A stretch of DNA of 64,000 nt from Thermotogaceae bacterium (GTDB lineage Bacteria > Thermotogota > Thermotogae > Thermotogales > Thermotogaceae): contig WGAO01000120.1 of NCBI GenBank assembly GCA_015489065.1, positions 24,936-88,935 of the forward strand. Direction: 5' to 3'. Below are positions 14,875 through 33,350 of this stretch, piece after piece. How positions within the stretch are numbered: position 1 is the stretch's first letter; each line of letters starts with the position of its first letter. Both the position numbers and the translations under genes were made by a program. Below the pieces are notes generated by a model, which did no database searches, was not told where the DNA came from, and worked only from the letters and a program-made list of their open reading frames with translations.

Positions 14875-14886
14875 TTCATCACCCCT

Positions 14887-17073
14887 TTAGAAGAGATGGT
14901 ATTTTGCAAAGAGTGACGCCATAAGTATCGAAACTATGGACATGATCTTTATAAGTATATTTATAGACGGACCTGCTGCGTCTTTCAAAGGATCTCCAAC
15001 TGTGTCTCCAACTACGAGTGCTTTATGCTCATCTCCACCTTTCGTACCACATTCAAGTTTACCACTTTCAAGGAGTTTCTTGGCGTTGTCCCATGCACCT
15101 CCAGCATTTGCCATGGTTATAGCAACAAGAGACCCACTGACAACGGTTCCTATGAGAAGCCCTCCGACGAATTCAGGACCGAAGAGAAATCCAACGATTA
15201 TAGGTGTAAAGAGAGCTAGAAAGCTTGGAAGCTTCATCTCTTTCAATGCCTGTCTGTTGCTTATAGCTATACACCTGTTGTAATCAGGTTTTGCCTTACC
15301 CTCTTTTATACCGGGAATCTCCTTGAATTGCCTTCTTACTTCGTCTATGAGAGCTTTAGCGGCTTCTGTAACGGAATCAGTTATCATAGCTGCGAACAAA
15401 TATGGAAGAGCCCCTCCTATCAAAGCTCCACTGATAGTTTTTGCATCCGTAAGGAAGAGCCTGGTCTTTTCACCCAAAAGATGTAGAAGGTTCGCTCCAG
15501 CCATTTGTCCCATTTCACTTATAGCTTCTGCACTGAGCTGTGAGAATATGTAAGAAGCAAACAAGGAAAGAGCTGCTAATACTGCTGAACCTATTGCAAA
15601 CCCTTTCCCTATAGCTGCTGTAGTGTTTCCCACAGCATCCAATTTATCTGTAATTTTTCTAACACCTTCATCTAGTCCCGCCATCTCGCTTATTCCACCG
15701 GCGTTATCAGCAATTGGACCATAACTGTCAACTGACACGGAAGCCGCAACGAATGAAAGCATGCCAAGCGCGGCTATCGCTATTCCGTAAAGCCCAGCTA
15801 TGTGGCTTGCAAGCAGAATACCGATCACTATCGTAGCTATCGGCAAGAATGTGCTTCTCATGCCGAGTGATATCCCGCTCGTCATTACGAGCCCAACTCC
15901 ACTCTTGGATTTAAGGCACAAGCTCTTTGTCGGTTTGTACTTATCACTCGTATAGTACTCAGCCCAATATCCTATGAGCATTCCGACTATTATCCCTACT
16001 ATCATCGCACCCCAAGGTGAATACCAACCATATTTGAATCCAACTACTTCTAAATTATGAAACTTTCCAAATAGCAAATAGCTCAGAAGCGTTCCGGATA
16101 AAAGTGTTATTATCGCCGATGTCCAAAGGCCAATATCCAGATCGTGTTGGGGTTCATCAGATCCTTTTTTCATCAAGACGAAAGATATACCTATCATGGA
16201 TGAAACGAGTCCAACTGCAGCAAGGCTGAGCGGGAATATGATCATGTTCTTCATCAAAGTATGGTCAACTCTGTTGTAGTATATGGCAAACATATAAGTA
16301 GCCAAAACCATTGATGCAACTATCGAACCGACGAAAGATTCCAAAAGGTCCGAACCAAGACCTGCTATATCTCCAACATTGTCTCCAACATTATCAGCGA
16401 TTGTCGCAGGATTTCTAGGATCATCTTCTGGGAGTCCTACTTCCGTCTTTCCAACAAGATCAGCTGCCATATCAGCAGCTTTTGTGTATATCCCCCCGCC
16501 AACTCTGTTGAACATGGCAACAAGAGAGCTTCCAAGTGCATATCCAGATATACTCATTGTGAACGGTATATAATTTATACCAAGCCAATTTGTAACAACC
16601 TTTATATTAACAACCTGTCCAAACATCTTCCCGAATATCAAATAGACTACTCCTAGCCCCAGGACAGCGAGTCCTGCGACCGATAAACCCATAACTGTTC
16701 CCCCAGCGTAGGCGACCTTCAGGGCATCTGAAACATTCCTAGTCTTTCTGGCCACATTTGCAACTCTCACATTTGAAGTGGTCGCGGCTCTCATACCGAT
16801 GTATCCAGCGAGCATGCTCATAATAGCTCCGAATATGAACGAAATCCCCACATACCACTCGGTCACTACAGCCAACACCACGGCGACCACCACAGCTGTT
16901 CTAAAAACAGCCTTAGCCTCGTCTGCCAAGAAAGTTTTTGCTCCTTCTCTTATGAAGGAAGCGATCTCAGACATCTCCTTCGTACCTTCATCCTTCTTCT
17001 TGACAGAGATATAGTTGGAAAGTGCGTACAAAAGCGCAGCAACAGATGTTGCAAGTATCCACCATATATGCAC
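14887..17073 (-). CDS. hppA: Membrane-integral cation-pumping pyrophosphatase, K+-dependent type
   Basis: 728 aa with about 16 TM helices and the motifs DNVGDNVGD and GNTTAAIGKGFAIGSA. Ala in GNTTAA is the K+-dependent signature. GTG start with RBS GGGAGGGG. Confidence 0.93.
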   Translation of the reverse strand: MHIWWILATSVAALLYALSNYISVKKKDEGTKEMSEIASFIREGAKTFLADEAKAVFRTAVVVAVVLAVVTEWYVGISFIFGAIMSMLAGYIGMRAATTSNVRVANVARKTRNVSDALKVAYAGGTVMGLSVAGLAVLGLGVVYLIFGKMFGQVVNIKVVTNWLGINYIPFTMSISGYALGSSLVAMFNRVGGGIYTKAADMAADLVGKTEVGLPEDDPRNPATIADNVGDNVGDIAGLGSDLLESFVGSIVASMVLATYMFAIYYNRVDHTLMKNMIIFPLSLAAVGLVSSMIGISFVLMKKGSDEPQHDLDIGLWTSAIITLLSGTLLSYLLFGKFHNLEVVGFKYGWYSPWGAMIVGIIVGMLIGYWAEYYTSDKYKPTKSLCLKSKSGVGLVMTSGISLGMRSTFLPIATIVIGILLASHIAGLYGIAIAALGMLSFVAASVSVDSYGPIADNAGGISEMAGLDEGVRKITDKLDAVGNTTAAIGKGFAIGSAVLAALSLFASYIFSQLSAEAISEMGQMAGANLLHLLGEKTRLFLTDAKTISGALIGGALPYLFAAMITDSVTEAAKALIDEVRRQFKEIPGIKEGKAKPDYNRCIAISNRQALKEMKLPSFLALFTPIIVGFLFGPEFVGGLLIGTVVSGSLVAITMANAGGAWDNAKKLLESGKLECGTKGGDEHKALVVGDTVGDPLKDAAGPSINILIKIMSIVSILMASLFAKYHLF

Positions 17074-17359: not shown

Positions 17360-17388
17360 TTGCAACACAGGATGTTTTCCATTAAAAT
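17360..17388 (+). promoter_or_regulatory. Candidate sigma70-type promoter TTGCAA-17 nt-TAAAAT for the 17.4-24.3 kb cluster
   Basis: TTGCAA at 17360-17365, a 17-nt spacer, and TAAAAT at 17383-17388. The RBS GGAGGTGA at 17399-17406 and a TTG start at 17411 follow. Confidence 0.4.
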
Positions 17389-17410
17389 CATCTTCGCAGG
17401 AGGTGAATCA

Positions 17411-19213
17411 TTGCAGGCTGTTATATTGGCTGCCGGAATGGGGAAAAGACTCGGCAAGTACACAAAAGAAGTGACAAAGGGTATGGTCAGGGTTGTTGGA
17501 AAAACTTTATTAGAACATGCTTTAGACTCCTTGGTTGAAAAAGTCGACAGAGTCATATTGGTCGTTGGATACAAAGCCGAAAAGGTGAAGGAATTTCTCG
17601 GAAACTCTTACAAGGGATTAACGATATCTTATATAGACAACCCGCATTATGAAACCACAAACAACATATACTCACTATGGCTTGCGGCTGAGGAGATGAA
17701 AAAAGACGACACACTGCTCCTTGAAAGTGATGTGATTTTCGAAAGAGAAGTCATAGAACGCCTGGTTAAAACTGATGGTGAAGCGGTTGCCGTGATTCAC
17801 AAATTTGAAGACTGGATGGATGGTACCGTGGTTATCCTGGATGACTACGGGAACATAGCGTCTTTTCTGGATAAGTCTGCCATAGTTTGGGAAAACTCCG
17901 CAAATTATTACAAAACAGTTAACATTTACAAATTCTCCAAGGAATTCTTTTCAAAATACTATTTCCCATTTTTAAAGGCATATGTGGAATCGAACGGCTA
18001 CTCTTCTTACTACGAGGTAGTTCTTTCACTCATAGCCGGATTGAAAAATATAAAAATAAAACCTCTGATAATAGATGGATTGAAATGGTACGAGATAGAC
18101 ACACCAGAGGATCTGTGGTCCGCAAATGTCATATTCTCCGATTTGGACGAGAAATATGAGCTTCTAAAAAAATCGTATGGTGGGTACTGGAGATTTCCAA
18201 GTCTTAAAGACTTTTGCTATCTCGTAAATCCGTACTTTCCAAGTGAAAGCTTTTTATCTCGCATGAAAAAGATTTTTGAAAACCTGATAACTTCATACCC
18301 ATCCGGAAGAGAAAGAATAAAGCATCTCCTTTCGGAGATGTTTGGCGTTAGCCACGAGATGATCACAGCCGGTAACGGTGCCTCTGAAATCATCAAAGTT
18401 CTCTCAGAAGTGATTAAAGGAAGTTTCGGAATGATGATACCAACCTTTGAAGAATATCCAAACAGAATAAAGAACATCATCACTAGGAAACCAGAAAACG
18501 ATGGATTCAGATACTCTGAGAAGGATGTCATAGAGTTTTTCGAGGATGTCGACAACATCGTTCTTATCAATCCAGACAATCCAAGTGGAAACTTCATAAA
18601 CAGAGAAGGCATTCTAAATATTCTTGACAGCATTTCAGGATCAGAAAAGAATTTGATTCTCGATGAATCTTTTGTGGATTTCGCAAATCCTGATAAACGC
18701 TTCACTATGATAGTTGAGGATGTTCTGATGAAATACCCTAACTTGATTGTCGTGAAAAGTATAAGTAAAAGCTATGGTGTTCCTGGGATAAGACTCGGTG
18801 TAGTAGCTACTTCCAATGCAAACCTCCTGAGAAAGGTAGAAGAGAACATGCCAATATGGAACATAAACTCGTTTGCAGAATATTTTCTCCAAAAGATGGA
18901 GCCCTACAAAGATGAATACAAACTAGCTTGTGATCTTATATCTAAAGAGAGAGAATTTCTGATAAACGAATTGTCCAAGGTAGAAGGGATAAGAGTTTAT
19001 CCATCCCAAGCGAACTTCGTTTTATGTAGAGTAGAAAACTCTCAAGAAATAGCTCTGAAACTCTTGGCCAATGACATATTTATAAAGGACTGCTACGGAA
19101 AGTTGGGAATAGATAAGCCCAAGTACATTAGACTCTCTATTAGAAACAGAGAAGATAATAAAAAGCTGATTGAATCTATAAAAAGCGTACTGGAGGGCAA
19201 AGATGAAGTTTAA
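17411..19213 (+). CDS. Bifunctional fusion: LicC-like sugar/alcohol-phosphate nucleotidyl(cytidylyl)transferase plus class I/II PLP enzyme (HisC/CobD-like aminotransferase or decarboxylase)
   Basis: The N-terminus has AVILAAGMGKRLG...TNNIYSLWLA (NTP-transferase fold). The C-terminus has NPDNPSG and the PLP-lysine motif KSISKSYGVPGIRLG. The probable start is TTG 17411 behind GGAGGTGA; the ORF track starts at ATG 17360. Confidence 0.8.
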   Translation: MQAVILAAGMGKRLGKYTKEVTKGMVRVVGKTLLEHALDSLVEKVDRVILVVGYKAEKVKEFLGNSYKGLTISYIDNPHYETTNNIYSLWLAAEEMKKDDTLLLESDVIFEREVIERLVKTDGEAVAVIHKFEDWMDGTVVILDDYGNIASFLDKSAIVWENSANYYKTVNIYKFSKEFFSKYYFPFLKAYVESNGYSSYYEVVLSLIAGLKNIKIKPLIIDGLKWYEIDTPEDLWSANVIFSDLDEKYELLKKSYGGYWRFPSLKDFCYLVNPYFPSESFLSRMKKIFENLITSYPSGRERIKHLLSEMFGVSHEMITAGNGASEIIKVLSEVIKGSFGMMIPTFEEYPNRIKNIITRKPENDGFRYSEKDVIEFFEDVDNIVLINPDNPSGNFINREGILNILDSISGSEKNLILDESFVDFANPDKRFTMIVEDVLMKYPNLIVVKSISKSYGVPGIRLGVVATSNANLLRKVEENMPIWNINSFAEYFLQKMEPYKDEYKLACDLISKEREFLINELSKVEGIRVYPSQANFVLCRVENSQEIALKLLANDIFIKDCYGKLGIDKPKYIRLSIRNREDNKKLIESIKSVLEGKDEV

Positions 19214-19898
19214 GGAAACATTCAGATATTTCGAATCTCCCGCTTCTATGGTTTCATACTTTTTCGTGGATAGAATAGCGGCGCCTCTGGTATGGATGAA
19301 TGTGAACTTTTTAAAAATTCATCCAAATGTCCTATCGATGTTATCGGGGTTTTTCGCCATTCTAACGGTCTTAGAGTTTTTCAAAGGAAATTTCATAACC
19401 GGAGCTTTCCTTTACTTTCTATCGTTTTTGCTTGACTCCGCAGATGGACCATCTGCAAGAGCTATGAACAAAAAGACCCGTCTTGGAGTAGCCCTTGAAG
19501 TGTGGTTCGATTCGGCAAGACTTATTGGGTCTTCGTTCTCCATGGCTTGGAAACTGTACGAGGGTACGGAGAATTTTCTTTGGATGATACTCTTTCTTCT
19601 CTGGGGTGTATCATTCGGAGCAGGGATCTGGATTTATCAAAAAGCAAAAGAATCTTTTAAAGAAAACATATTCGAAAAACCAAAAAAGGAGTATTCATTC
19701 GCACCGCTCATAACTTGGATGGATCTTGAAATGCTTGAATTTTTCTTCGCTCCCATCTTTGGATTTGTGAAAATCGGCTATATAGTTCTGTCAATAGGCT
19801 ATCTCATTACAACTGCTGGTATGACTGTATATACAGTGTTCGAAGATGAAATAAACAACTTTTTTGGCAAAACGAGAAAGGAGAAAAACAAATCGTGA
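19203..19898 (+). CDS. CDP-alcohol phosphatidyltransferase family membrane protein
   Basis: The motif DSADGPSARAMNKKTRLGVALEVWFD corresponds to D-x2-D-G-x2-A-R-x8-G-x3-(D->E)-x3-D. The protein is polytopic. It overlaps the upstream gene by 11 nt. Confidence 0.8.
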   Translation: MKFKETFRYFESPASMVSYFFVDRIAAPLVWMNVNFLKIHPNVLSMLSGFFAILTVLEFFKGNFITGAFLYFLSFLLDSADGPSARAMNKKTRLGVALEVWFDSARLIGSSFSMAWKLYEGTENFLWMILFLLWGVSFGAGIWIYQKAKESFKENIFEKPKKEYSFAPLITWMDLEMLEFFFAPIFGFVKIGYIVLSIGYLITTAGMTVYTVFEDEINNFFGKTRKEKNKS

Positions 19899-20863
19899 AA
19901 AAGTTCGTAGTAAGCGCAATAATAGCCGTTTCAATAAGCCTTGGTACCATGGCTCTCATAGGATTCTTCAACGGTGGATTCGATACTCTGGAAAATGTTC
20001 CGTTGAGGATACATCTTCTCACTCTTTTTGGATTTATATTCCTGTACATATTCGGGGGACTCAGTACAAAACTCTTCATGTGGTTTCTTGGATATAAAAT
20101 CAGCTTTCTCAACTCTCTGGAGAATTTCTTCTTTGGAAACTTTTTTTCGTACATAACTCCAATGTATATAGGAGGACAGCCATTCCAAATCCATCATTTA
20201 TCAAAGATTGGCGTTAAAAACGGAGATGCAACGAATTTTGTCATGACAAGACTTTTTGAATCCTTTATAACAACGCTCATTTTGGATCTTTCTATATACA
20301 GGTATGCTATGACAAAGCTGAACTTTGGTAAAGTAGGTGAAACACTCATAAAACTCGGATTCTCGCTTCAATTTCTTTGGACGGTCTTGATACTTCTTTT
20401 CTTGTTCTTTCCAAGAATTTTTAACTTTCTCATGAGACCGGTTTTCAAGATCATGAAGAGAAAGAGCGATGACCTGGAAACTTGGCTTTTGAGTTTGAAA
20501 AACAGTGTAAGAACTGTGTGGAGAAAAAAACCCCTCGCACTAGTACTTGATATGATCTGGTGGTTTGTCAACATAAGTATACATGCACTTCCGTTTTACA
20601 TGATCTTTGAGTACTTTAATCCTCAGTTTAAAATGGGATTTTTTCATCTTTTAGCCGTTTTGTCGCTCGTCAACACTGTTGCTTACTACACACCAACCCC
20701 TGGAGCCACCGGGGGAGTTGAAGGAATATACCACTTAACCTTATCTGGAATGGTGAGCTACGAATCAATTACAGTGGCACTGCTTATATGGCGCGTTTAC
20801 AGTTACTACATACCAATTCTGGTAGGTCTTATAATGATATGGCGTGTGAGGAAATTGATATAG
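19895..20863 (+). CDS. UPF0104 / lysyl-PG-synthase-TM-region (flippase-like) membrane protein, copy 1
   Basis: 322 aa polytopic protein with GGQPFQIHHLSKIGV and TPTPGATGGVEG motifs. It overlaps the upstream gene by 4 nt. Confidence 0.7.
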   Translation: MKKFVVSAIIAVSISLGTMALIGFFNGGFDTLENVPLRIHLLTLFGFIFLYIFGGLSTKLFMWFLGYKISFLNSLENFFFGNFFSYITPMYIGGQPFQIHHLSKIGVKNGDATNFVMTRLFESFITTLILDLSIYRYAMTKLNFGKVGETLIKLGFSLQFLWTVLILLFLFFPRIFNFLMRPVFKIMKRKSDDLETWLLSLKNSVRTVWRKKPLALVLDMIWWFVNISIHALPFYMIFEYFNPQFKMGFFHLLAVLSLVNTVAYYTPTPGATGGVEGIYHLTLSGMVSYESITVALLIWRVYSYYIPILVGLIMIWRVRKLI

Positions 20864-20875
20864 TAGGTGATTTGA

Positions 20876-22036
20876 ATGAAAGGTTCTTTATTTCTATATT
20901 TTTTCACAGGTTTTACTTTAGGATCTCTCATAATACTGCTTTTTGGGCTGAATTTTATAAGCGTGATATTCGCCGCGCTTTTGGGAATTATATTTGAAAT
21001 ATTCCTGTACATAAGGGGAATACCTCCAAAAAGAAAAAAAGATGTGGAAGATCTGGTGTGCATAATAATTCCTGCTTACAATGAAGAAAACTCTTTGAGA
21101 AAATCCGTAGAATCTGCAATAAAGCAAAGTTACAAAAACAGATTAATAGTCCTTATGAACGATAATTCAACCGACAATACAGGAATACTAATGGAAAGAT
21201 ACGCAAAAGAATATGAAAATGTGATCTACCTGAGAAATTATGAAAATCTCGGAAAATTTAGTTCTATAATGAGGGTTTTCAAAGAAGTAAATGCAGACAT
21301 ATATGTCATAGTGGATGCAGACAACGAATTTCCAGAAAACTATATCGAATACTATGTGAAGAGAATGGAAAATATAGACGCTCTTGAAACTCCACTATCT
21401 TCATACAATGCTTGCAAGAATTTCACATCTTTAATTCATACACTTGAAATATCTTTGATGAGCTCTATAAGGTTTATGAATCTATTCCCAAACTTCACGG
21501 GAAGAGGAATGTTTATAAGAAAAAAAGTACTGGAGTTTCTCCACGAAAAAAACATAAAAGGCAAAGACGATGGCGCTATGATGAATGTCGCTATGAAGCA
21601 TGGAAATTTCAAATACAGATACTTCACAGGACCCGCTCTCAAAGAGTATGCCACAGAAAAATTCAGGGATTTTGTAAACCAACGAGATAGGTGGTACACA
21701 CTTGGTATGGTAGAAACTCTTAAAAAAGGAGCTCGGACACTCTCTACGGTATTCGGATTGTATTCCAGCTTGGTTTTCTCAACGATATTTCTGGGTGTAA
21801 CTATGCCATTACTTGGCTTTAGATGGTACTCGGTTTTAATGATAGAATTGCTCACTGGTGTATTCTTCCATTCAATTATCTACTCAGTGAAATTTGAGAT
21901 AAACTGCAACAGGTTTATAAATGGAATATTCGGAATAGTGATGTTGTTGATAAACACCTCCCTAATATTCAGATCATTCTGCAGAGTAATATTTGGAAGG
22001 ATCCCAAAAACCTGGTACAAAGTTCCAAAATCCTGA
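20876..22036 (+). CDS. Membrane-embedded family-2 glycosyltransferase (IcaA/PgaC/NodC-like architecture), copy 1
   Basis: N-terminal TMs, then IIIPAYNEE, NDNSTDNT, VDADNE (DxD) and QRDRW (QxxRW), then C-terminal TMs. Confidence 0.8.
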   Translation: MKGSLFLYFFTGFTLGSLIILLFGLNFISVIFAALLGIIFEIFLYIRGIPPKRKKDVEDLVCIIIPAYNEENSLRKSVESAIKQSYKNRLIVLMNDNSTDNTGILMERYAKEYENVIYLRNYENLGKFSSIMRVFKEVNADIYVIVDADNEFPENYIEYYVKRMENIDALETPLSSYNACKNFTSLIHTLEISLMSSIRFMNLFPNFTGRGMFIRKKVLEFLHEKNIKGKDDGAMMNVAMKHGNFKYRYFTGPALKEYATEKFRDFVNQRDRWYTLGMVETLKKGARTLSTVFGLYSSLVFSTIFLGVTMPLLGFRWYSVLMIELLTGVFFHSIIYSVKFEINCNRFINGIFGIVMLLINTSLIFRSFCRVIFGRIPKTWYKVPKS

Positions 22037-22066
22037 TGTTCTCCAATCTGGTATAATGACGCTGTC

Positions 22067-23062
22067 ATGAGAATGAAAAAAATCCTACTATCACTTTTTA
22101 TAGCGTTCGTATCGAGTTTCACAGTTGTAATATTCTTAAACTTCTTTCATAGGGGCAGAGCGGGATTTCTTGATCTTTTGAGCACTTTGCCTATTCATAT
22201 TTATTTTATGGCTTTTCTAATATTTACGAGTTCTTATTTCCTAGAAGCTCTTAGAATAGTCTATCTCGTAAGACATAGAGGATACAAAATTGGCTTTTTC
22301 AGTGCCATTTACAACACAGTCATAGGATATTTGTTCTCTTTCCTGACTCCATTTGCCATGGGAGGGCAGCCGTTTCAGGTGTTCCACCTGTCGAAGCTCG
22401 GTGTGGATTCAAGCTATGCCACTGGTATAATGGGAGCAAGAATGCTAGAAAACTCTCTTGGTGGAGCAGTTATAGCCTTAATAATGCTCAACACCAGCCT
22501 TGGATGGATTCTAAAAAATGGTCACCTGGTAATTGGAGGAGTAATCATAAGCTTGTCTGTATCTATAGCTATAGTAATATCGATGTTCAAGCCCAAGATC
22601 TTGATGCCACTTGTTAAAATTGCTTCAAGAATTTTCAAAAAAGATCTCGTAGAATCTTTCAATACATGGAGAGAAAATTTCGAGCTTAGTATCAATTATA
22701 TGTGGAAAGAAAATTTCTATCTCGTCATACTTGATGTTTTGGAATGGTTCGCAACTCTGGTGATACAAATTTACTCTCTATTTTACATTCTAAATTTTCT
22801 TTCAAATGTCAAACTGAATTTCTGGCTAGTTTTCGGATCAATAAATGCCGTTAACGCTTTAGCATACTTCATCCCAACACCTGGGGCATCTGGAGGAATA
22901 GAGTTTACATATCAATATGTATTGTCGGGAATAACAATGAACAGTGGAATAGCTCTTAAAGCTGTTACCTCTTGGAGAGTGGTGTCTTATTACCTGCAAA
23001 TCCTTCTTGGAATAATATTTCTGGGAGCGTTTGGAAAGATCGGTCTGGAGGGAAATAAATGA
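22067..23062 (+). CDS. UPF0104 / flippase-like membrane protein, copy 2
   Basis: 331 aa with GGQPFQVFHLSKLGV and IPTPGASGGIEF, the same motifs as 19895..20863. Confidence 0.7.
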   Translation: MRMKKILLSLFIAFVSSFTVVIFLNFFHRGRAGFLDLLSTLPIHIYFMAFLIFTSSYFLEALRIVYLVRHRGYKIGFFSAIYNTVIGYLFSFLTPFAMGGQPFQVFHLSKLGVDSSYATGIMGARMLENSLGGAVIALIMLNTSLGWILKNGHLVIGGVIISLSVSIAIVISMFKPKILMPLVKIASRIFKKDLVESFNTWRENFELSINYMWKENFYLVILDVLEWFATLVIQIYSLFYILNFLSNVKLNFWLVFGSINAVNALAYFIPTPGASGGIEFTYQYVLSGITMNSGIALKAVTSWRVVSYYLQILLGIIFLGAFGKIGLEGNK

Positions 23063-24264
23063 GCTTGGTTTGGGTTTTCTTTTCACTATCAATTTCGGCG
23101 GGAATATTTACAATTCTGATAGGTAAATACATAAACTATATGAGAACAACAAGACTCCATGTCAGCAAGAAAAGGGATTTCAAACCATTTGTTTCCGTGA
23201 TCATACCAACCTGGAACGAAGCAGATGTTATAGAAAATACCATCAGAAATGTAGAAGAGAGTTTTTACGAGAAATTCGAAATAATAGTCGTGGATGATAG
23301 ATCCACAGACGGAACTTATGAAATACTCAAAGATCTAGAAAAAGAATACTCGAACTTAATAGTTCTCAAAAAGAAAGGAAGGAAAGGAAAGCCTCAATCT
23401 ATAAACGAAGCCATGGAAGTGGCTCGTGGAGACATCATACTGTTTTTGGATGCGGATTCAAGAATATCTCCCGAATATATTTCAACTCATGTTGCATGTT
23501 TCTCACACCCAAATGCAAATATGATATTCACAGATTTCGAACCTTACAACTACAAACCGAAAAATCTTTCCCACAAAATTCAAGAACTCTTCTTTTCTTT
23601 TGCAAAAGATGTCATATATTCAAACATATTTGTGAAGATGATATTCATGGGTAACGGGGTTTTCTTCAAGAGAGAGATACTCGACAAAGTTGTTCCAATA
23701 GATCCAACCACCTTAGTAGATGATTTTACGATAGCTTCAAAGCTATCAGAAATAGGTGTGAGAGAGGTCTTTTCAATCTACCCCTGGGTAAACATACAGT
23801 ACGCAAACTCCCTAAAGGATCTTTGGAAGCAACATATGAGATGGTATTACGGAGGATTCAGAGAAATAGTCAAGTTTATGAAAGCTGGAAATCTCAAATA
23901 CTTGCTTTTTTACATACTCTCAATCGCATTTTTTACAAGTCCCATATGGTTTACAATCCTCTGGATATTTTTCGGCAATTTCTGGCTATTTTTGGGGCTT
24001 TACCTTATAGTCTATGCTTACTCACTCTTTACTTTCTCACAACTCTTGGATGTCAATAGAAGATTAAGTGTCCTGTCAACTTTCATTCTACCAGCACTTG
24101 TCATGGTCTTCGAACTCTCCGTACTGATCCCCGCCATGCTAAAATCTCTTTTTGTGGAAAGATACTACGAGGTAATGGATAGGATAGGAAAAAGGATAAA
24201 CAAGAACTTGAGCAAAAAGGATAAAGAGGAGGATTGGTACAAAGTAAAAAGAGATAGATACTAA
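23059..24264 (+). CDS. Membrane-embedded family-2 glycosyltransferase, copy 2
   Basis: VIIPTWNEA, VDDRSTDGT, LDADS (DxD) and QHMRWYYG (QxxRW), with flanking TM helices. It overlaps the upstream gene by 4 nt. Confidence 0.8.
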   Translation: MSLVWVFFSLSISAGIFTILIGKYINYMRTTRLHVSKKRDFKPFVSVIIPTWNEADVIENTIRNVEESFYEKFEIIVVDDRSTDGTYEILKDLEKEYSNLIVLKKKGRKGKPQSINEAMEVARGDIILFLDADSRISPEYISTHVACFSHPNANMIFTDFEPYNYKPKNLSHKIQELFFSFAKDVIYSNIFVKMIFMGNGVFFKREILDKVVPIDPTTLVDDFTIASKLSEIGVREVFSIYPWVNIQYANSLKDLWKQHMRWYYGGFREIVKFMKAGNLKYLLFYILSIAFFTSPIWFTILWIFFGNFWLFLGLYLIVYAYSLFTFSQLLDVNRRLSVLSTFILPALVMVFELSVLIPAMLKSLFVERYYEVMDRIGKRINKNLSKKDKEEDWYKVKRDRY

Positions 24265-24278
24265 AGGAGGTGCTCCCG

Positions 24279-24617
24279 ATGGATTGTGTCTTCTGCAAAA
24301 TAATAGAGGGTGAGATACCATCGGAGAAAGTCTACGAAGATGAAGACTTTTTAGTGATAAAAGACATACGCCCTGTGGCGCCAGTTCATTTGCTCGTCCT
24401 TTACAAAAAGCATGTCGGAAAGATTCATCAGCTCTCAGAAGAGGACAGAAAGAAGCTCTCTAAGGTCTTTGAGTTAATAGCCAAAGTCGCAGAAAAGAGC
24501 GGAATTCTGGAGAGTGGATACAGGGTAGTTGTAAACAACGGTCCTGATGCAGGACAAGAAGTAGATCACATACACTTTCATGTGATAGGCGGAAAGAAGC
24601 TGGGGAAGATAGCGTGA
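24279..24617 (+). CDS. HIT-family nucleotide hydrolase/transferase
   Basis: The histidine triad HIHFHVIGG is present. The probable ATG at 24279 (MDCVFCKI...) lies 8 nt after AAGGAGG; the track ORF begins at GTG 24270. Confidence 0.9.
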   Translation: MDCVFCKIIEGEIPSEKVYEDEDFLVIKDIRPVAPVHLLVLYKKHVGKIHQLSEEDRKKLSKVFELIAKVAEKSGILESGYRVVVNNGPDAGQEVDHIHFHVIGGKKLGKIA

Positions 24618-25606
24618 AGAGAGTGGTGATAATCACCACAGGCGGAACTATAGCCATGACAAAAACTCATAACGGCGTTGTTCCTTTCTCAGGGGGAAAC
24701 TCTTTGATCACACAGATCCCAGGACTGGAAAATGTGGCAGAAATAGATCATGTCGAATTTTCAAATGTTCCAAGCCCCTATATGACGCCTGATATGATGT
24801 GGAAACTATCCAGAATGGTTCAGGATATCGTAAACGATAAGGAAGTTGATGGAGTTGTGATAACACACGGCACGGACACACTCGAAGAGACCTCATATTT
24901 TCTTGATCTGACCGTAAATACTGAAAAACCCATAGTGCTCACGGCAGCTATGAGAAACATAAACGAACTCGGAACCGATGGGCCTAGGAATGTTCTTTCA
25001 TCTCTGAGAGTTGCTGTTTCTGACAGCGCCTTTGGCATGGGCGTTATGGTGTGCTTGAACGATGAAATACATGCAGCAAGAGAAGTGACCAAAACTTACA
25101 CAAGCAATGTTGCAACCTTTGAATCACCTGGATATGGTCCACTTGGAATAGTTGATGAAGATGCAGTGGTCTTCTTCAGGAAGCCTCTTCTCAGAATGAA
25201 TATAGATACCGACAGGATAGAGAGCAGGGTAGCTCTTGTAAAAACCTTTACAGGAGATAACGGAGATATTCTTAGAAAAGTTGTTGATATGGGGTACAAG
25301 GGAATAGTGCTGGAAGGATTTGGAAGGGGAAATGTGCCACCGAAAGTTGCAGATGCTGTGTCAGATGTCATAGACAAAGTTGTGGTAGTTCTAACATCGA
25401 GATGCTTTAAGGGAAGAGTTCTGGATGTTTATGGATACAAAGGGGGAGGAGCTGATCTAGTAAAAAGAGGGGTTATACTTGGACAGGAAGTTTCATCTCA
25501 GAAAGCCAGGATAAAGTTAATGGTGGTTTTGGGAAAGACAGAAGATAGGGATAAGATAAGGAAGTATTTTGAGACCTCAAGGGCAGGTGGGGAAATATCG
25601 ATCTAA
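24614..25606 (+). CDS. ansA: L-asparaginase, type I
   Basis: TTGGTIAM and HGTDTLEETSYFL catalytic motifs; 330 aa. Confidence 0.9.
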   Translation: MKRVVIITTGGTIAMTKTHNGVVPFSGGNSLITQIPGLENVAEIDHVEFSNVPSPYMTPDMMWKLSRMVQDIVNDKEVDGVVITHGTDTLEETSYFLDLTVNTEKPIVLTAAMRNINELGTDGPRNVLSSLRVAVSDSAFGMGVMVCLNDEIHAAREVTKTYTSNVATFESPGYGPLGIVDEDAVVFFRKPLLRMNIDTDRIESRVALVKTFTGDNGDILRKVVDMGYKGIVLEGFGRGNVPPKVADAVSDVIDKVVVVLTSRCFKGRVLDVYGYKGGGADLVKRGVILGQEVSSQKARIKLMVVLGKTEDRDKIRKYFETSRAGGEISI

Positions 25607-25611
25607 AAAAA

Positions 25612-26610
25612 TTGAATCTTGCTACTCTAATTACCTTACTCTTCTTTCTATTTATAGTATTCGTTTTCATGATAAAGGATGTAGCAGTTGTTCTTGTACT
25701 CATCTTCATATCGGTTTCCGTGTTGAAAGCGTTGAATGACGCTCTAGAGAGGATTTTAAGGAGTAACTCCCTTAGGGTGTTAATATCGATCTCGATCTAT
25801 TTCTTATTTCTAGCTTTCACCATTTGGTTAATAGTCCCGGCTGTTGTTAAAGAATTCGGAAGTTTTTACAAGCTAATGATGGGAGATGTCAACCTAAAGA
25901 GCTGGAAGAAATTCTTTGAAAACGATAGGATTTTAGACCTTTTCCAAAAGATTATAGACTACATGAAACCCCGGATAAATGATTATGTCAATACAGCGCT
26001 CACAACATTAGCAACATCTACTCCTAAATTTGGTATGCAGATATTCTTCGTAATCCTCGGTACGATATACTCACTCATCTATTTCGATCATCTGAGAAAT
26101 CTTCCAAAGGTTCTCTATCCAAGAAAACTTCATTCTATTGTCTTGCCATTCTCCAACGAACTATTCGCAAATCTCATGAGATTCGTACAGGCCGTTTTTG
26201 TCACGGCGATGCTCACCGGAATTCTTTTCTTCCTATCCTTTGAGATAATGGGCCTAAAATACAGTATAACCATAGGCGTTTGGGCATTCGTGACAAATTT
26301 CATGCCGATAGTTGGTGTGCTCTTTGAATACATACCGGTTTTATTATTTTCGCTTTCGCTCGGTTTCAAAGGGGTTATAATCATGACACTGATAACTCTG
26401 GCGATACACACAGTATCTTTCGTAACATTCATACACATGATGAAGGGATACTCAAACATCAGCCCGGTGGAGATGCTGTTCTTTATTCTCCTTCTTTGGA
26501 AACTATATGGACTGATGGGAATATTCATAGCAGTACCGCTGACAATATTCATAAACACATTCTGGAAGTATTTCATAAGACCTCGTTATGAGGGGGAGGA
26601 AATGATTTGA
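25612..26610 (+). CDS. AI-2E family transporter (PerM/UPF0118)
   Basis: 332 aa polytopic protein with the typical AI-2E topology and the C-terminal pattern ...FIAVPL.... Confidence 0.7.
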   Translation: MNLATLITLLFFLFIVFVFMIKDVAVVLVLIFISVSVLKALNDALERILRSNSLRVLISISIYFLFLAFTIWLIVPAVVKEFGSFYKLMMGDVNLKSWKKFFENDRILDLFQKIIDYMKPRINDYVNTALTTLATSTPKFGMQIFFVILGTIYSLIYFDHLRNLPKVLYPRKLHSIVLPFSNELFANLMRFVQAVFVTAMLTGILFFLSFEIMGLKYSITIGVWAFVTNFMPIVGVLFEYIPVLLFSLSLGFKGVIIMTLITLAIHTVSFVTFIHMMKGYSNISPVEMLFFILLLWKLYGLMGIFIAVPLTIFINTFWKYFIRPRYEGEEMI

Positions 26611-27680
26611 AAAAGCTCTTAATAGCTCTTATTGTGATATCAGTTTTATCCTTTTCTATAACAAAAGAAGATATACTGAAAACTTCAAGAGAAGATATTG
26701 AAAGGGCTGTGAAGCTCCTCAAGATTTATATCGCCCAGCACCCCGATGAAAATGTGGAGGATATAGGAAAAATAGTCTTCGTCAAAAAGAAACTCTCTTC
26801 AGATCCTTTTATAGGCGAGGCGGTCGTTAAAGAAAATTTTGATGCTCTTCTCAAAGGCCTCGTCGAAAAGGGAAGTATTAGCAAAGAACTATTTGACGAT
26901 CTTAAAGTGATTTTCAATTTCAAAGATGAACTTGAAAAGAGATTGAGCAACCTAGATGAAAACGCGCTCAAGGTGTGCAACATGGTTGGAAGATATATCA
27001 AAGTGAGCTGCAGCGGAGTAGCTAAAAAAATCGTGGAAGAATATGTAAAGAACCCGCTAAAATTCGATCCAAAGCCCTATCTTAACCTAGCATGCATTGA
27101 TAAAAATGAAATGAAAAAAGCGTTATCAACAGCGCTTGAGGAAAAATTCAAAGAAGGAGAAAAATATTACCTGAAAATCTGGACACTCGCTGAGATTCTG
27201 AATGTTGATTTCCCCCACCTGAAAGATCTGAAAGAGTACTCCAATCTATCTATGGACATAGATGAAGCTTTGAGAAGTGGTGTCTCAACAGAAGAATATG
27301 ACAAGCTGATGAACCGCCTTAACAATTTAAAAGTGGAGAAAAGCTATCTTGAGAAAAAGATGGAGAATCTGAAGAAAATGATATATTCTCCTGAGAAACC
27401 ACAGAGAACAAATCCTCCTACTGGAAAGCCTATAATCACATACATAGCTGTGACGGTTGTCTCAGCTGCGGCGTTCTTCATTATTCTATTGCTTTTAGAT
27501 TCAAGACACAATGTTAAAAGGATAAAGCGAAAAATAGAGAAAGATCCGCTCAACCCAGATCTCCATATAAGACTGGCAGAACTCTATGAGAGAATTGGAA
27601 GATTGGAAGACGCTATGGAAGAGTACAAGATCGCCTCCAAACTCTCAAATAGTAAAGAAAAAAATAAGGAAGATGATTAG
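26607..27680 (+). CDS. Hypothetical bitopic membrane protein with a short C-terminal TPR-like repeat
   Basis: Signal peptide (MKKLLIALIVISVLSFS), about 270 aa of Lys/Glu-rich ectodomain, one TM (ITYIAVTVVSAAAFFIILLLL), and a cytoplasmic LHIRLAELYERIGRLEDAMEEYKIASKL segment. Confidence 0.5.
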   Translation: MKKLLIALIVISVLSFSITKEDILKTSREDIERAVKLLKIYIAQHPDENVEDIGKIVFVKKKLSSDPFIGEAVVKENFDALLKGLVEKGSISKELFDDLKVIFNFKDELEKRLSNLDENALKVCNMVGRYIKVSCSGVAKKIVEEYVKNPLKFDPKPYLNLACIDKNEMKKALSTALEEKFKEGEKYYLKIWTLAEILNVDFPHLKDLKEYSNLSMDIDEALRSGVSTEEYDKLMNRLNNLKVEKSYLEKKMENLKKMIYSPEKPQRTNPPTGKPIITYIAVTVVSAAAFFIILLLLDSRHNVKRIKRKIEKDPLNPDLHIRLAELYERIGRLEDAMEEYKIASKLSNSKEKNKEDD

Positions 27681-33074: not shown

Positions 33075-33350
33075 TCAATGGAATAGAACATTTGTTATTA
33101 TTATTATGTGCCCCTCTCTTTCTTCAAACTCCACTTTCACTTTGCTCTTATCCACATTGAAAGTTTCTGAAACCCAAGAAGCTATCCTCTCTTTAATGAC
33201 TTCAGAATTCTTCTCAAACTCTTCTTTGGGTATCACCATGTTTTGCATACTCAAACTCTCTCGCCTAGTTGTACTTATCATCGTGTTGAGCCTCTTTTTC
33301 GCATCCTCTCTGCTTCCTTTTTTCTTCCTTCTGAAGAACCAAAATCTCAT
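33075..33350 (-). CDS. minE: Cell division topological specificity factor MinE
   Basis: 91 aa. It has an N-terminal amphipathic/basic membrane-targeting segment plus AKKRL. It overlaps minD by 4 nt. Confidence 0.8.
   Translation of the reverse strand: MRFWFFRRKKKGSREDAKKRLNTMISTTRRESLSMQNMVIPKEEFEKNSEVIKERIASWVSETFNVDKSKVKVEFEEREGHIIIITNVLFH

What the first reader, a model, noticed from the sequence alone, without database searches (positions are those of the whole stretch)
17360..24264. Six-gene head-group activation, phosphotransfer and double [flippase-like + GT2] cluster: candidate uncharacterised envelope lipid/glycoconjugate pathway
Six co-directional genes are packed with 4-11 nt overlaps or gaps of 30 nt or less. 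They encode a cytidylyltransferase::PLP-enzyme fusion, a CDP-alcohol phosphatidyltransferase, and two successive pairs of a UPF0104 (MprF-flippase-like) membrane protein with a polytopic GT2 carrying DxD and QxxRW motifs.

A biochemical sequence can be read from the domains. First, a small phospho-amino-alcohol is made or modified. It is then CDP-activated and transferred as a phospho-head-group onto a lipid or glycolipid acceptor. The GT2s build the glycan or glycolipid, and the flippase-like proteins translocate it.

I do not recognise this gene combination as a characterised pathway. Thermotogota are known for unusual phospho-glycolipids whose head-group genetics are largely unknown.
Basis: partly seen in the sequence, partly recalled or inferred. 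Interest (0 to 1): 0.75.

Follow-up and report, generated by a model that had tools for sequence, protein, structure and literature searches.

The report
Two-module membrane-lipid head-group gene cluster
Six tightly packed genes in an uncultured Thermotogota bacterium form two separable modules: one probably makes a CDP-activated amino-alcohol, attaches it to a membrane lipid and flips it, and the other probably builds and flips glycolipids, and neither matches a characterised pathway.

Summary
Six co-directional ORFs lie at 17360-24264 with spacings of -11, -4, +12, +30 and -4 nt. The predicted domains and the DxD/QxxRW motifs are all present.

The six genes are not one conserved unit. They form two modules with different distributions.

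- **Module A (g1-g2-g3).** It comprises a LicC-like cytidylyltransferase fused to a CobD-like PLP enzyme, a small CDP-alcohol phosphotransferase, and a UPF0104 flippase-like protein. The trio stays together in every relative that carries g2. g2 forms a very narrow clade: 2 representatives among 1.84 billion.
- **Module B (g4-g5-g6).** It comprises two membrane GT2s and a UPF0104 protein. It recurs without module A in other Thermotogota.

Best reading, all inferred. Phosphoserine is decarboxylated to phosphoethanolamine and activated to CDP-ethanolamine. A Kennedy-type transfer puts it on diacylglycerol or a glycolipid, and the product is flipped. Beta-glycolipid synthesis runs alongside.

Published analogues exist: IPCT/DIPPS, the Treponema CDP-choline route, the Bacteroidetes alternative inositol cluster, HexSDF and GpgSDF. 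No teichoic-acid, PNAG or DIP locus fits. I call it a new variant of a known kind, of moderate interest. The widespread g1 fusion enzyme appears uncharacterised and is directly testable.

The parts
17411..19213 (+). g1: bifunctional enzyme. N-terminal LicC-like cytidylyltransferase fused to a C-terminal CobD-like PLP enzyme. The longest ORF starts at 17360; the likely start is TTG 17411.
   Evidence: Pfam NTP_transferase/NTP_transf_3 plus Aminotran_1_2. PDB sequence hits: 6oux 4e-44, CobD 1lc5 7e-28, LicC 1jyk 1e-10, IPCT 2xme 1e-9, PntC 6pd1 6e-9. RBS GGAGGTG lies before TTG 17411. More than 8000 full-length homologues at about 48-50% identity.
17429..17455 (+). g1 nucleotide-binding loop AAGMGKRLG (GxGxR type).
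   Evidence: Position. Its first residue (aa 24) lies within the stretch aligned with LicC and IPCT. That GxGxR marks nucleotidyltransferases is established knowledge.
18758..18778 (+). g1 PLP-lysine segment SISK(470)SYG. The upstream LDESF(437) lies at 18659-18682.
   Evidence: Aligns with the SLTK segment of S. enterica CobD and with 6oux. The Phe in 'DESF' matches CobD, SMUL_1544 and 3ftb. The HisC 3ffh and 3fkd have Tyr there.
19203..19898 (+). g2: small (231 aa) CDP-alcohol phosphotransferase. It overlaps g1 by 11 nt.
   Evidence: Pfam PF01066 at 51.4 bits. AlphaFold model pLDDT 91. Best folds are AF2299 (TMq 0.71), IPCT-DIPPS, then PIP synthases. The clade is very narrow.
19434..19511 (+). 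g2 catalytic motif D78xxD81G82xxA85R86x8G95xxxE99xxxD103. The third Asp is replaced by Glu.
   Evidence: All eight motif positions, including E99, are invariant in the five clade members. The motif aligns with the PIP-synthase motif. Most distant relatives have Asp at this position.
19895..20863 (+). g3: UPF0104 (MprF flippase-domain-like) membrane protein. It overlaps g2 by 4 nt and belongs to module A.
   Evidence: Pfam LPG_synthase_TM 108.8 bits. TIGR00374 65.2 bits against a cut-off of 43.2. It follows g2 in every locus that has g2.
20876..22036 (+). g4: membrane GT2 with D147AD and Q269RDRW. One N-terminal and three C-terminal hydrophobic segments.
   Evidence: Orthologue in L091 at 37% identity beside the g5 orthologue.
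22067..23062 (+). g5: second UPF0104 protein, 30% identical to g3. It belongs to module B.
   Evidence: Orthologues: L091 at 53% beside GT2s; L006 at 37% beside a UDP-galactopyranose mutase and a GT2.
23059..24264 (+). g6: membrane GT2 of the GT21/cellulose-synthase-like kind, with D131AD and Q258HMRW. It overlaps g5 by 4 nt.
   Evidence: Pfam GT2 and Glyco_transf_21 (4e-14). Model pLDDT 89. Best folds are PcManGT, hyaluronan synthase and BcsA. Orthologues in Thermosipho (46-53%), Tepiditoga (42%) and Kosmotoga (39%); two sources name some hits '1,2-diacylglycerol 3-beta-glucosyltransferase'.
24270..27680 (+). Downstream co-directional block: HIT, asparaginase, AI-2E transporter and a TPR-like ORF. 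Probably co-transcribed. Not assigned to the pathway.
   Evidence: Gaps or overlaps of 5 nt or less. Pfam hits. The same block follows a different GT2 in L006.

Best explanation
The locus is a membrane-lipid head-group island made of two modules. None of the chemistry below has been shown; it is all inferred from homology and gene context.

**Module A (g1-g2-g3), a Kennedy-type route that needs no free amino-alcohol.**
1. The CobD-like PLP half of g1 decarboxylates a phospho-amino acid. The most likely substrate is O-phospho-L-serine, giving phosphoethanolamine.
2. The LicC-like half of g1 condenses this product with CTP to give CDP-ethanolamine.
3. g2 is translationally coupled to g1. It transfers the phospho-amino-alcohol from CDP to a lipid hydroxyl at the cytoplasmic face and releases CMP.
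   - I favour a diacylglycerol-type acceptor, giving a PE-like lipid. Given that the overall scheme holds, I put this at about 55%.
   - A glycosyl-diacylglycerol acceptor comes second, at about 30% on the same condition.
4. g3 moves the amine-bearing lipid to the outer leaflet.

**Module B (g4-g5-g6).** Two inverting membrane GT2s glycosylate a membrane lipid to give mono- or oligo-beta-glycosyl lipids, and g5 flips them.

The two modules share the lipid-precursor pool. They may or may not act on the same molecule.
For: **g1.**
- The N-terminal half matches LicC, IPCT, PntC and IPCT-DIPPS best. All are cytidylyltransferases for small phospho- or phosphono-alcohols.
- The C-terminal half scores higher with CobD (TIGR01140, 175.6 bits) than with HisC (156.5 bits).
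- The best PDB hits are 6oux (the SMUL_1544 enzyme), 3ftb and CobD. They share the PLP lysine and the 'DE(A/S)F' signature.

**Coupling of g1, g2 and g3.**
- The genes overlap by 11 and 4 nt.
- The trio is conserved in L001, L005, L006, L002, L007 and L008.
- In L009 a different PLP enzyme plus a LicC-like transferase sits before g2. So g2 follows a LicC-like nucleotidyltransferase in every locus that holds DNA upstream of it.

**g2.**
- The high-confidence model is closest to AF2299 and DIPPS. DIPPS uses a soluble CDP-alcohol as donor (established knowledge).
- Among 80 metagenome loci of distant family members, 14 have a LicC-like transferase in the flank, and it abuts or overlaps the g2 homologue in 5.

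**UPF0104 partners.** In published systems these proteins accompany enzymes that make amine- or sugar-bearing lipids: HexSDF (PMC10128005), GpgSDF (PMC12713373) and the BT_1521 homologue beside Bacteroidetes inositol-lipid genes (PMC9246714).

**GT2s.**
- D, DxD, D and QxxRW are present.
- g6 hits GT21 and, below the curated cut-offs, the HpnI and CruG models.
- Two sources name some g6 hits, including the Thermosipho africanus orthologue, as a beta-glucosyl-diacylglycerol synthase.
- The GT2 plus UPF0104 linkage recurs in Thermosipho africanus and in L091.

[quoted passage not shown] An amine-bearing phospholipid would therefore add to the known repertoire of the phylum.
Against: - No biochemical datum exists for any of the six proteins or their close homologues.
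- The PLP domain is below the CobD equivalog cut-off (175.6 against 290.55). It could be a threonine-phosphate decarboxylase or a transaminase.
- g1 homologues in Methanosarcina and Parabacteroides are followed by an OCD/mu-crystallin gene. The family's chemistry may therefore be more complex than a simple decarboxylation.
- g2 carries Glu in place of the third catalytic Asp, with unknown consequence.
- To my knowledge no CDP-alcohol phosphotransferase is known to use a sugar hydroxyl as acceptor.
- The g6 fold also matches processive polymer synthases (HAS, BcsA).
- HexF and GpgF flippase activity is itself unproven (PMC10128005, PMC12713373).
- Whether this genome also has PssA/Psd could not be checked.
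Confidence: 0.5

Rival explanations
1. The GT2s (g4, g6) are processive synthases of a secreted beta-glycan or oligosaccharide, like PNAG, cellulose, hyaluronan or NodC products. The UPF0104 proteins act as export or accessory partners. Module A would then decorate the polymer or its primer with a phospho-amino-alcohol.
For: - The best NCBIfam hit of g6 is PgaC_IcaA (1.7e-32).
- The g6 model superposes on hyaluronan synthase (TMq up to 0.70) and BcsA.
- The D, DxD, D, QxxRW set is typical of processive GT2s.
- Source names among g6 hits include 'hyaluronan synthase related' and 'YdaM'.
Against: - All equivalog scores are far below their cut-offs: PgaC 112.9 against 422, CelA 48.9 against 699, NodC 34 against 550.
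- None of the six products matches a deacetylase family, and no PgaD/IcaD-like small partner or other accessory gene lies within the cluster.
- I count only about 4 hydrophobic segments. The top structural hit is PcManGT, described by its authors as a minimal cellulose-synthase-like fold (my knowledge).
- Every characterised UPF0104 partner acts on lipids (PMC10128005, PMC12713373).
- The g2 active site, by homology, faces the cytoplasm. It could not reach a polymer that is extruded as it is made.
Confidence: 0.2
2. The scheme is the same but the head group is different. The g1 PLP domain is an L-threonine-O-3-phosphate decarboxylase, giving CDP-1-amino-2-propanol. Alternatively it is a transaminase, for example dihydroxyacetone phosphate to serinol phosphate, giving CDP-serinol.
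For: - The best curated model is the threonine-phosphate decarboxylase CobD.
- HisC-type transaminase models also score strongly (8.3e-46).
- C. jejuni Cj1436 and Cj1437 show that close relatives in this PLP family can be either a serine-phosphate decarboxylase or a serinol-phosphate-forming transaminase. This is my knowledge and was not checked here.
- An OCD/mu-crystallin partner in other phyla hints at varied chemistry.
Against: - No threonine kinase (PduX-like) is in or near the cluster. Phosphoserine is a standard intermediate of serine biosynthesis.
- The top PDB hit is 6oux. It is the SMUL_1544 enzyme (name confirmed in PMC7755780), reported as a serine-phosphate decarboxylase (my knowledge of Keller et al.).
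- The 'DESF' signature groups g1 with decarboxylases rather than with the HisC shown.
Confidence: 0.25
3. Module A makes a soluble phosphodiester compatible solute. g2 would be a DIPPS-like enzyme that transfers the head group to a soluble phospho-alcohol, not to a lipid.
For: - The g2 model is closest to AF2299 and IPCT-DIPPS.
- Its best NCBIfam hits are AIP/PIP synthases and IPCT-DIPPS.
- Thermophiles accumulate such solutes (established knowledge).
Against: - A UPF0104 membrane protein follows g2 in every locus.
- The neighbours are membrane glycosyltransferases. No inositol-phosphate synthase or phosphatase is in the cluster.
- The NF041135 scores are 74 and 26 bits against a cut-off of 580.
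Confidence: 0.05
4. g1 belongs to cobamide nucleotide-loop biosynthesis, combining CobD-like and CobY-like activities. Its position beside lipid genes would be incidental.
For: The CobD model is the best NCBIfam hit. JGI names for homologues mention 'cobyric acid decarboxylase-like' and 'GTP:adenosylcobinamide-phosphate guanylyltransferase'.
Against: - No cob or cbi genes are nearby. The 'CbiA' Pfam hit at 33347-34189 is a MinD/ParA-type ATPase.
- The nucleotidyltransferase half matches LicC, IPCT and PntC rather than a cobamide enzyme.
- g1 overlaps g2 by 11 nt.
- Its homologues sit in capsule or teichoic-type loci next to Glyphos_transf or LicD.
Confidence: 0.02

Closest known systems
Bacterial CDP-choline (Kennedy-type) pathway of Treponema denticola: LicCA plus 1,2-diacylglycerol cholinephosphotransferase (my knowledge: Kent 2004, Vences-Guzman 2017; not checked here)
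   Same: A LicC-type cytidylyltransferase activates a small phospho-amino-alcohol. A CDP-alcohol phosphotransferase family enzyme then transfers it to a lipid.
   Different: The Treponema head group comes from choline imported and phosphorylated by a kinase. Here a fused PLP enzyme would make the phospho-amino-alcohol de novo. Here a dedicated UPF0104 protein follows. g2 has no close sequence relationship to any characterised enzyme.
IPCT/DIPPS of Archaeoglobus fulgidus (PDB 4mnd) and AF2299 (PDB 4o6m)
   Same: Cytidylyltransferase and CDP-alcohol phosphotransferase are coupled: fused there, overlapping genes here. These are the best structural matches of g2. The g1 N-terminal half matches IPCT.
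   Different: The DIPPS acceptor is soluble inositol phosphate and the product is a solute. No inositol-phosphate synthase is present here. NF041135 is far below its cut-off. g2 has Glu at the third Asp of the motif.
[quoted passage not shown]
   Same: The same three-part logic applies: a nucleotidyltransferase, a CDP-alcohol phosphotransferase and a UPF0104-type protein. The authors propose a Kennedy-like route.
   Different: The head group there is inositol from MIPS, there is no PLP enzyme, and the function is likewise unconfirmed.
SMUL_1544 (PDB 6oux) and CobD (PDB 1lc5), phospho-amino-acid decarboxylases of cobamide biosynthesis
   Same: These are the best sequence matches of the g1 C-terminal half. 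They share the PLP lysine and the DE(A/S)F segment.
   Different: They are stand-alone enzymes in cob operons. g1 is fused to a cytidylyltransferase and sits among lipid or glycan genes. It scores below the CobD equivalog cut-off.
PntC-AEPT fusion of Treponema denticola (PDB 6pd1), which activates 2-aminoethylphosphonate as a cytidylyl derivative (my knowledge: Rice 2019)
   Same: A LicC-like nucleotidyltransferase is fused to a PLP enzyme that makes the amine-bearing head group. Its N-terminal half matches g1 at 5.6e-9.
   Different: The PLP domain there is a class V transaminase acting on a phosphonate. g1 carries a class I/II CobD-like domain. L009 may carry the class V type.
HexSDF (C. difficile), GpgSDF (P. 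aeruginosa) and MprF: a lipid-modifying enzyme plus a UPF0104 flippase domain
   Same: A head-group-modifying enzyme is paired with a UPF0104 protein in one operon. The products are amine- or sugar-bearing lipids (PMC10128005, PMC12713373).
   Different: Their synthases are a GT4 (GpgS) and an enzyme annotated as a monogalactosyldiacylglycerol synthase (HexS), each with a deacetylase. Here the synthases are GT2s and a CDP-alcohol phosphotransferase, with no deacetylase. The GlcN_PG_flip equivalog is not met (31 and 22 bits against 320).
Lipid-directed GT2/GT21 enzymes (cyanobacterial MgdA, ceramide glucosyltransferase, HpnI, CruG) and the minimal cellulose-synthase-like PcManGT (PDB 6yv7)
   Same: g6 shares the D, DxD, D, QxxRW set. 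It hits Glyco_transf_21 and, weakly, HpnI, CruG and ceramide glucosyltransferase. Its top structural hit is PcManGT.
   Different: No equivalog threshold is met. The sugar donor and the acceptor are unknown.

Membership tests
CDP-alcohol phosphatidyltransferase (PF01066) | Pfam gathering score and a fold of six transmembrane helices | tested here: met
   51.4 bits against a cut-off of 22. The AlphaFold model has pLDDT 91, and AF2299 matches at TMq 0.71 with probability 1.00.
CDP-alcohol phosphatidyltransferase (PF01066) | Signature DxxDGxxARx8GxxxDxxxD with all four Asp | tested here: inconclusive
   D78, D81, G82, A85, R86, G95 and D103 are present. The third Asp is Glu99, invariant in the five clade members. 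Whether Glu supports catalysis is unknown.
Threonine-phosphate decarboxylase CobD (TIGR01140 equivalog) | Score at or above the curated cut-off | tested here: not met
   175.6 bits against 290.55. It is the best-scoring model, but g1 is a relative and not a member.
Fold-type I PLP enzyme of the CobD/HisC group | PLP lysine in an S-x-x-K segment aligned with that of CobD | tested here: met
   SISK470 aligns with SLTK of 1lc5 and SLSK of 6oux.
LicC-type CTP:phospho-alcohol cytidylyltransferase | N-terminal GxGxR loop, and closest relatives that are cytidylyltransferases | tested here: met
   AAGMGKRLG at aa 24-32. The top four PDB hits for this half are LicC, IPCT, PntC and IPCT-DIPPS. CTP specificity itself was not tested.
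UPF0104 / flippase-like domain (TIGR00374, PF03706) | Scores above the curated cut-offs | tested here: met
   g3 scores 65.2 and g5 scores 50.5 bits against 43.2. Pfam gives 108.8 and 98 bits against 33.4.
MprF (aminoacyl-phosphatidylglycerol synthase/flippase) | C-terminal aminoacyl-PG synthase domain | tested here: not met
   g3 and g5 are 322 and 331 aa and hit only LPG_synthase_TM.
PNAG synthase locus (PgaC/IcaA with partners) | PgaC_IcaA equivalog score, plus deacetylase and small-partner genes | tested here: not met
   g6 scores 112.9 and g4 scores 65.3 bits against 422.3. None of the six products matches a deacetylase family, and no PgaD/IcaD-like small ORF lies among them.
Teichoic-acid-type phosphotransfer (TagF/Glyphos_transf or LicD) | A PF04464 or PF04991 transferase in the cluster | tested here: not met
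   None is present in the window cluster. Such genes do accompany g1 homologues in other phyla.
Di-myo-inositol phosphate pathway (IPCT/DIPPS) | NF041135 equivalog score and an inositol-phosphate synthase | tested here: not met
   74.1 bits (g1) and 25.9 bits (g2) against 580. None of the six cluster products is an inositol-phosphate synthase, and none was seen among the flanking genes scanned.
Processive/inverting membrane GT2 (cellulose-synthase-like) | D, DxD, D, QxxRW motifs and a GT-A domain flanked by transmembrane helices | tested here: met
   Motifs. Fold matches to PcManGT, HAS and BcsA. Processivity itself is not testable with these tools.

The most novel reading that the evidence does not exclude
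Module A is a complete, ethanolamine-independent bacterial Kennedy pathway: phosphoserine to phosphoethanolamine to CDP-ethanolamine to a PE-type lipid or phosphoethanolamine-glycolipid. It would use a Glu-variant CDP-alcohol phosphotransferase and its own MprF-type flippase. It would occur in a phylum whose model species makes no reported amino-phospholipid.

The g1 fusion has more than 8000 full-length homologues in Bacteria and Archaea. They lie beside LicD, TagF-like or CDP-alcohol transferases. The fusion would then be the general, so far uncharacterised, de novo source of CDP-amino-alcohol for decorating lipids, capsules and teichoic-type polymers.
Probability: 0.35. Interest if true: 0.7.

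Novelty: new variant of a known kind. Interest (0 to 1): 0.55.

Why it matters
- **A new bacterial route to amine-bearing lipids.** If module A works as inferred, amine-bearing phospholipids or phosphoglycolipids can be made from a central metabolite without CDP-diacylglycerol, PssA/Psd or imported ethanolamine. This would add a positively charged head group to Thermotogota membranes. So far these are known for phosphatidylglycerol and glucosyl lipids (PMC8788747, PMC10160955).
- **A widespread enzyme with no known function.** The g1 fusion is found in Methanosarcina, Clostridium, Bacteroidales and Treponema. It always lies next to a transferase that uses CDP-activated head groups. I found no functional description of it. 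One enzyme assay would annotate thousands of genes in capsule, teichoic-acid and lipid loci.
- **A hint of surface selection.** Cluster proteins are 37-59% identical between relatives whose flanking proteins are 85-91% identical. This suggests the products are exposed at the surface and under diversifying selection or exchange.

Tried and rejected
**Readings rejected.**
- **Cobamide biosynthesis for g1.** No cob genes are nearby, and g1 homologues sit in glycan loci.
- **DIP, PNAG and teichoic-acid readings.** The equivalog scores are far too low and the partner genes are missing.

**Searches that led nowhere.**
- **Genome scan with the 20-sequence g2 alignment.** It failed for lack of a conserved stretch. 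The five-sequence alignment found only one species genome.
- **Exact-protein look-ups.** P0001 and P0307 returned nothing. Cluster-member look-ups returned no names or accessions.
- **Direct PDB sequence search with g2.** It found nothing. Only the profile and fold searches did.
- **Literature.**
  - Two searches for a bacterial CDP-ethanolamine, phosphate-decarboxylase or CobD-cytidylyltransferase enzyme found no paper.
  - A six-term search requiring any three terms listed only eukaryotic Kennedy-pathway papers, none mentioning a phosphate decarboxylase.
  - The search for serine-phosphate decarboxylase terms found nothing relevant.
  - The library covers open-access papers only.
  - The SMUL_1544 primary paper is not held.
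- **Thermotogales polar-lipid search.** It gave only unrelated species descriptions.
- **Rfam.** It found only one tRNA in the window and nothing in the cluster.
- **Promoter and terminator scans.** The counts did not exceed those in shuffled sequence. No + strand terminator-like site lies at a gene boundary within the cluster.

**Test of limited power.** My custom HMMs for the PLP and UPF0104 domains found no partners in the 80 metagenome loci. These profiles are narrow and many of the contigs are short.

Full report
**1. What is in the sequence**

One search shows six + strand ORFs filling 17360-24264. Their spacings are -11, -4, +12, +30 and -4 nt.

| Gene | Coordinates | Pfam assignment |
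|---|---|---|
| g1 | 17360-19213 | NTP_transferase/NTP_transf_3 (aa 20-256) plus Aminotran_1_2 (aa 330-607) |
| g2 | 19203-19898 | CDP-OH_P_transf |
| g3 | 19895-20863 | LPG_synthase_TM (UPF0104) |
| g4 | 20876-22036 | Glycos_transf_2 |
| g5 | 22067-23062 | LPG_synthase_TM (UPF0104) |
| g6 | 23059-24264 | Glycos_transf_2 |

- Both GT2s carry DxD and QxxRW. g4 has D147AD and Q269RDRW. g6 has D131AD and Q258HMRW.
- In 25 relatives of g6, the residues D80, D131, D133, D222, Q258, R261 and W262 are invariant.
- g3 and g5 are 30% identical. g4 and g6 are 25% identical. They are old paralogues, not a recent duplication.

Three corrections apply.

1. g1 most likely starts at TTG 17411, behind a GGAGGTG ribosome-binding site. 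This gives the 600 aa of its nearest homologues.
2. The tightly packed co-directional run continues through HIT, asparaginase, an AI-2E transporter and a TPR-like ORF to 27680.
3. The cluster has 36-38% G+C against 41-44% in the flanks.

No + strand terminator-like site lies at a gene boundary within the cluster. Co-transcription remains an inference.

**2. Where it comes from**

- The proteins match a 95-kb NCBI contig without names.
- Among the 185,579 GTDB species genomes, g2 has one relative. Its record is titled 'MAG: Thermotogaceae bacterium'.
- g6 has orthologues in Thermosipho (46-53%), Tepiditoga (42%) and Kosmotoga (39%).
- The Thermotogota guess therefore stands.

**3. The six genes are two modules**

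Gene-context look-ups and local BLAST give the following picture.

| Locus | What it holds |
|---|---|
| L001, L005 | Closest relatives: flanking proteins about 90% identical, cluster proteins 66-85%. All six genes in the same order. g1 is split into two ORFs in L005. |
| L006, L002, L007, L008 | Next lineage. g1-g2-g3 kept at 59, 49 and 48% identity (the start of g1 is cut off at the contig end in L007). g4 and g6 absent. |
| L009 | g2 at 55%, g3 split in two. g1 replaced by a class V aminotransferase and a frameshifted LicC-like transferase. |
| L091 | A Thermotogota MAG. Orthologues of g4 (37%), g5 (53%) and two of g6 (57-58%). No g1-g3. |
| L090 | Thermosipho africanus TCF52B. A g6 orthologue, a short GT2 and a UPF0104 gene in a row. 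No g1 or g2. |

- In L006, g1-g2-g3 sit beside a divergent GT4. A UDP-galactopyranose mutase, the g5 orthologue (37%) and an unrelated 297-aa GT2 lie next to them.
- So g3 belongs with g1 and g2 (module A), and g5 belongs with the GT2s (module B).
- The HIT-to-TPR block is 56-88% identical between the window and L006 (HIT and asparaginase 85-88%). The cluster proteins are only 37-59% identical, and the glycosyltransferase content differs.
- This is the pattern of a fast-evolving or exchanged surface-structure locus.

**4. Module A**

*g1.*
- The N-terminal half matches LicC (1e-10), IPCT (1e-9), PntC (6e-9) and IPCT-DIPPS (1e-8) best. All are cytidylyltransferases for small phospho- or phosphono-alcohols.
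- The C-terminal half scores best with CobD (TIGR01140, 175.6 bits). This is below the 290.55 cut-off but ahead of HisC at 156.5 bits.
- In the PDB it matches 6oux (4e-44), 3ftb and S. enterica CobD best.
- The name of 6oux is that of SMUL_1544 (PMC7755780). A reference title links that gene to norcobamide biosynthesis (PMC6461909, ref. 69). From my own knowledge it decarboxylates L-serine O-phosphate to ethanolamine phosphate.
- The PLP lysine (K470) aligns.
- The segment LDESF carries Phe, as in CobD, SMUL_1544 and 3ftb. The HisC 3ffh and 3fkd have Tyr at that position. This is suggestive, not decisive.
- The fusion is very widespread. More than 8000 full-length hits at about 48-50% identity include Methanosarcina, Clostridium, Bacteroidales and Treponema.
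- In the four non-Thermotogota contexts I read, it sits in glycan loci. It lies next to a TagF-like Glyphos_transf in three (L003, L004, L092), and in the same locus as a LicD in the fourth (L093).
- These transferases use CDP-activated head groups (established knowledge). That fits a CDP-amino-alcohol product.
- In L092 and L093 an OCD/mu-crystallin gene follows the fusion. This warns that the family's chemistry may vary.
- I found no paper describing the fusion. The library covers open-access papers only.

*g2.*
- The word-based search found five clusters.
- An exhaustive profile search of 1.84 billion representatives found two below 1e-30. The next hit is at 2e-19.
- The clade carries D78xxD81G82xxA85R86x8G95xxxE99xxxD103. 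Glu replaces the third Asp, and all eight motif positions are invariant in the five members. Most distant relatives have Asp there.
- No NCBIfam equivalog fits g2 or ten of its distant relatives. The nearest models are AIP/PIP synthases and IPCT-DIPPS.
- The AlphaFold model (pLDDT 91) is closest to AF2299 (TMq 0.71) and IPCT-DIPPS. PIP synthases come next, and PgsA and PssA are far behind.
- In 80 metagenome loci of the distant family, a LicC-like transferase lies in the flank in 14, and it abuts or overlaps the g2 homologue in 5. A rough chance expectation is a few per cent. My profile was narrow and many contigs are short.

*Inference.* These results, the 11-nt and 4-nt overlaps, and the invariable g2-g3 pairing point one way. 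The most economical reading is that g2 uses the g1 product as donor, transfers the phospho-amino-alcohol to a membrane lipid, and g3 flips the product.

*Acceptor (open).* Family precedent favours a diacylglycerol-type hydroxyl, as for the choline and ethanolamine phosphotransferases. The constant presence of a glycosyltransferase next to module A keeps a glycolipid acceptor in play. That neighbour is g4 here and a GT4 in L002, L006 and L008.

*Head group.* Phosphoserine is the most parsimonious substrate, because no kinase is present and phosphoserine is a central metabolite. Phosphothreonine or a transamination is not excluded.

**5. Module B**

- g6 hits Glyco_transf_21 (4e-14). Below the curated cut-offs it hits PgaC/IcaA, HpnI, HpnB and CruG.
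- By sequence its best PDB match is PcManGT. Ceramide glucosyltransferase is a weak match.
- Its model (pLDDT 89) superposes on PcManGT, hyaluronan synthase and BcsA.
- Two sources name some g6 hits '1,2-diacylglycerol 3-beta-glucosyltransferase'.
- I count one N-terminal and three C-terminal hydrophobic segments.
- In published systems UPF0104 proteins accompany lipid-modifying enzymes: HexSDF (PMC10128005), GpgSDF (PMC12713373) and the BT_1521 homologue beside inositol-lipid genes (PMC9246714). Their flippase activity is itself only predicted.
- I therefore favour beta-glycolipid synthesis and flipping over secreted-polymer synthesis. The fold alone cannot separate the two.

**6. Comparison with what is known**

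- T. maritima lipidomics report phosphatidylglycerol and glucosyl, diglucosyl and decanoyl-diglucosyl lipids. Genes were detected for PG and PI synthesis only (PMC8788747, PMC10160955).
- An amine-bearing phospholipid made by a Kennedy-type route would be an addition for the phylum. It would be confined to a narrow uncultured clade.
- Every step has a precedent elsewhere:
  - IPCT/DIPPS;
  - the Treponema CDP-choline route;
  - the unconfirmed Bacteroidetes alternative inositol cluster;
  - PntC fusions;
  - HexSDF and GpgSDF.
- The combination, the CobD-type fusion, the Glu-variant g2 and the dedicated flippase are new as a set. I class the locus as a new variant of a known kind.

**7. Verdict**

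- The best explanation has confidence about 0.5.
  - *Shown:* gene order, domains, motifs, folds, module distribution.
  - *Inferred:* all substrates, all products and the flipping.
- Interest is 0.55.
- The most valuable next step is a simple assay of the g1 fusion. It would also annotate thousands of homologues.

Noticed in passing
window 24270-27680 (+): HIT (HinT-like), asparaginase, AI-2E transporter and a TPR-like ORF continue the cluster's co-directional run with gaps or overlaps of 5 nt or less. The same four-gene block follows a different GT2 in L006. The transcription unit may therefore extend well beyond the six genes.
   Followed up: partly
window 18001-24000: The cluster has 36-38% G+C against 41-44% in the flanks. 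This could reflect membrane-protein codon content or horizontal acquisition. After the 59% clade, the nearest named g1 homologues are from other phyla at about 50% identity.
   Followed up: partly
L006 1-11621 compared with window 17360-27680: Flanking HIT and asparaginase proteins are 85-88% identical between the two genomes. Cluster proteins are only 37-59% identical, and the glycosyltransferase set differs (GT4, UDP-galactopyranose mutase and a 297-aa GT2 instead of g4 and g6). This resembles a hypervariable surface-glycoconjugate locus.
   Followed up: partly
L009 8367-11634: Here g2 is preceded by a truncated class V aminotransferase and a frameshifted LicC-like nucleotidyltransferase instead of g1, and g3 is split into two ORFs. 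This could be a decaying locus, an error-prone assembly, or a different (possibly phosphonate-type) head-group module.
   Followed up: partly
L005 8159-10008: The g1 orthologue in the only GTDB representative genome is split into two overlapping ORFs. This is either a frameshift or an assembly error.
   Followed up: no
L092 8001-10821; L093 8001-10768: In Methanosarcina and Parabacteroides the g1 homologue is immediately followed by an ornithine cyclodeaminase/mu-crystallin family gene. Both lie in capsule-type loci with Glyphos_transf or LicD and a Wzx-like flippase. This two-gene unit is conserved across domains of life and its product is unknown.
   Followed up: no
L090 6394-8984: Two ORFs (393 and 471 aa) with no Pfam match lie directly upstream of the g6-like GT2, GT2 and UPF0104 run in Thermosipho africanus.
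   Followed up: no
window 29358-30916 (-): A DUF4438 protein (29358-30224) and a glycerophosphodiester phosphodiesterase (GDPD, 30200-30916) lie about 5 kb downstream on the opposite strand. GDPD acts on deacylated phospholipid head groups. No link to the cluster was tested.
   Followed up: no
window 14248-14916, 18217-18705, 21436-21855 and similar: Long ORFs antisense to or overlapping the real genes have low-complexity, Ser/Leu/Phe-rich translations. I read them as mechanical artefacts of ORF calling.
   Followed up: no
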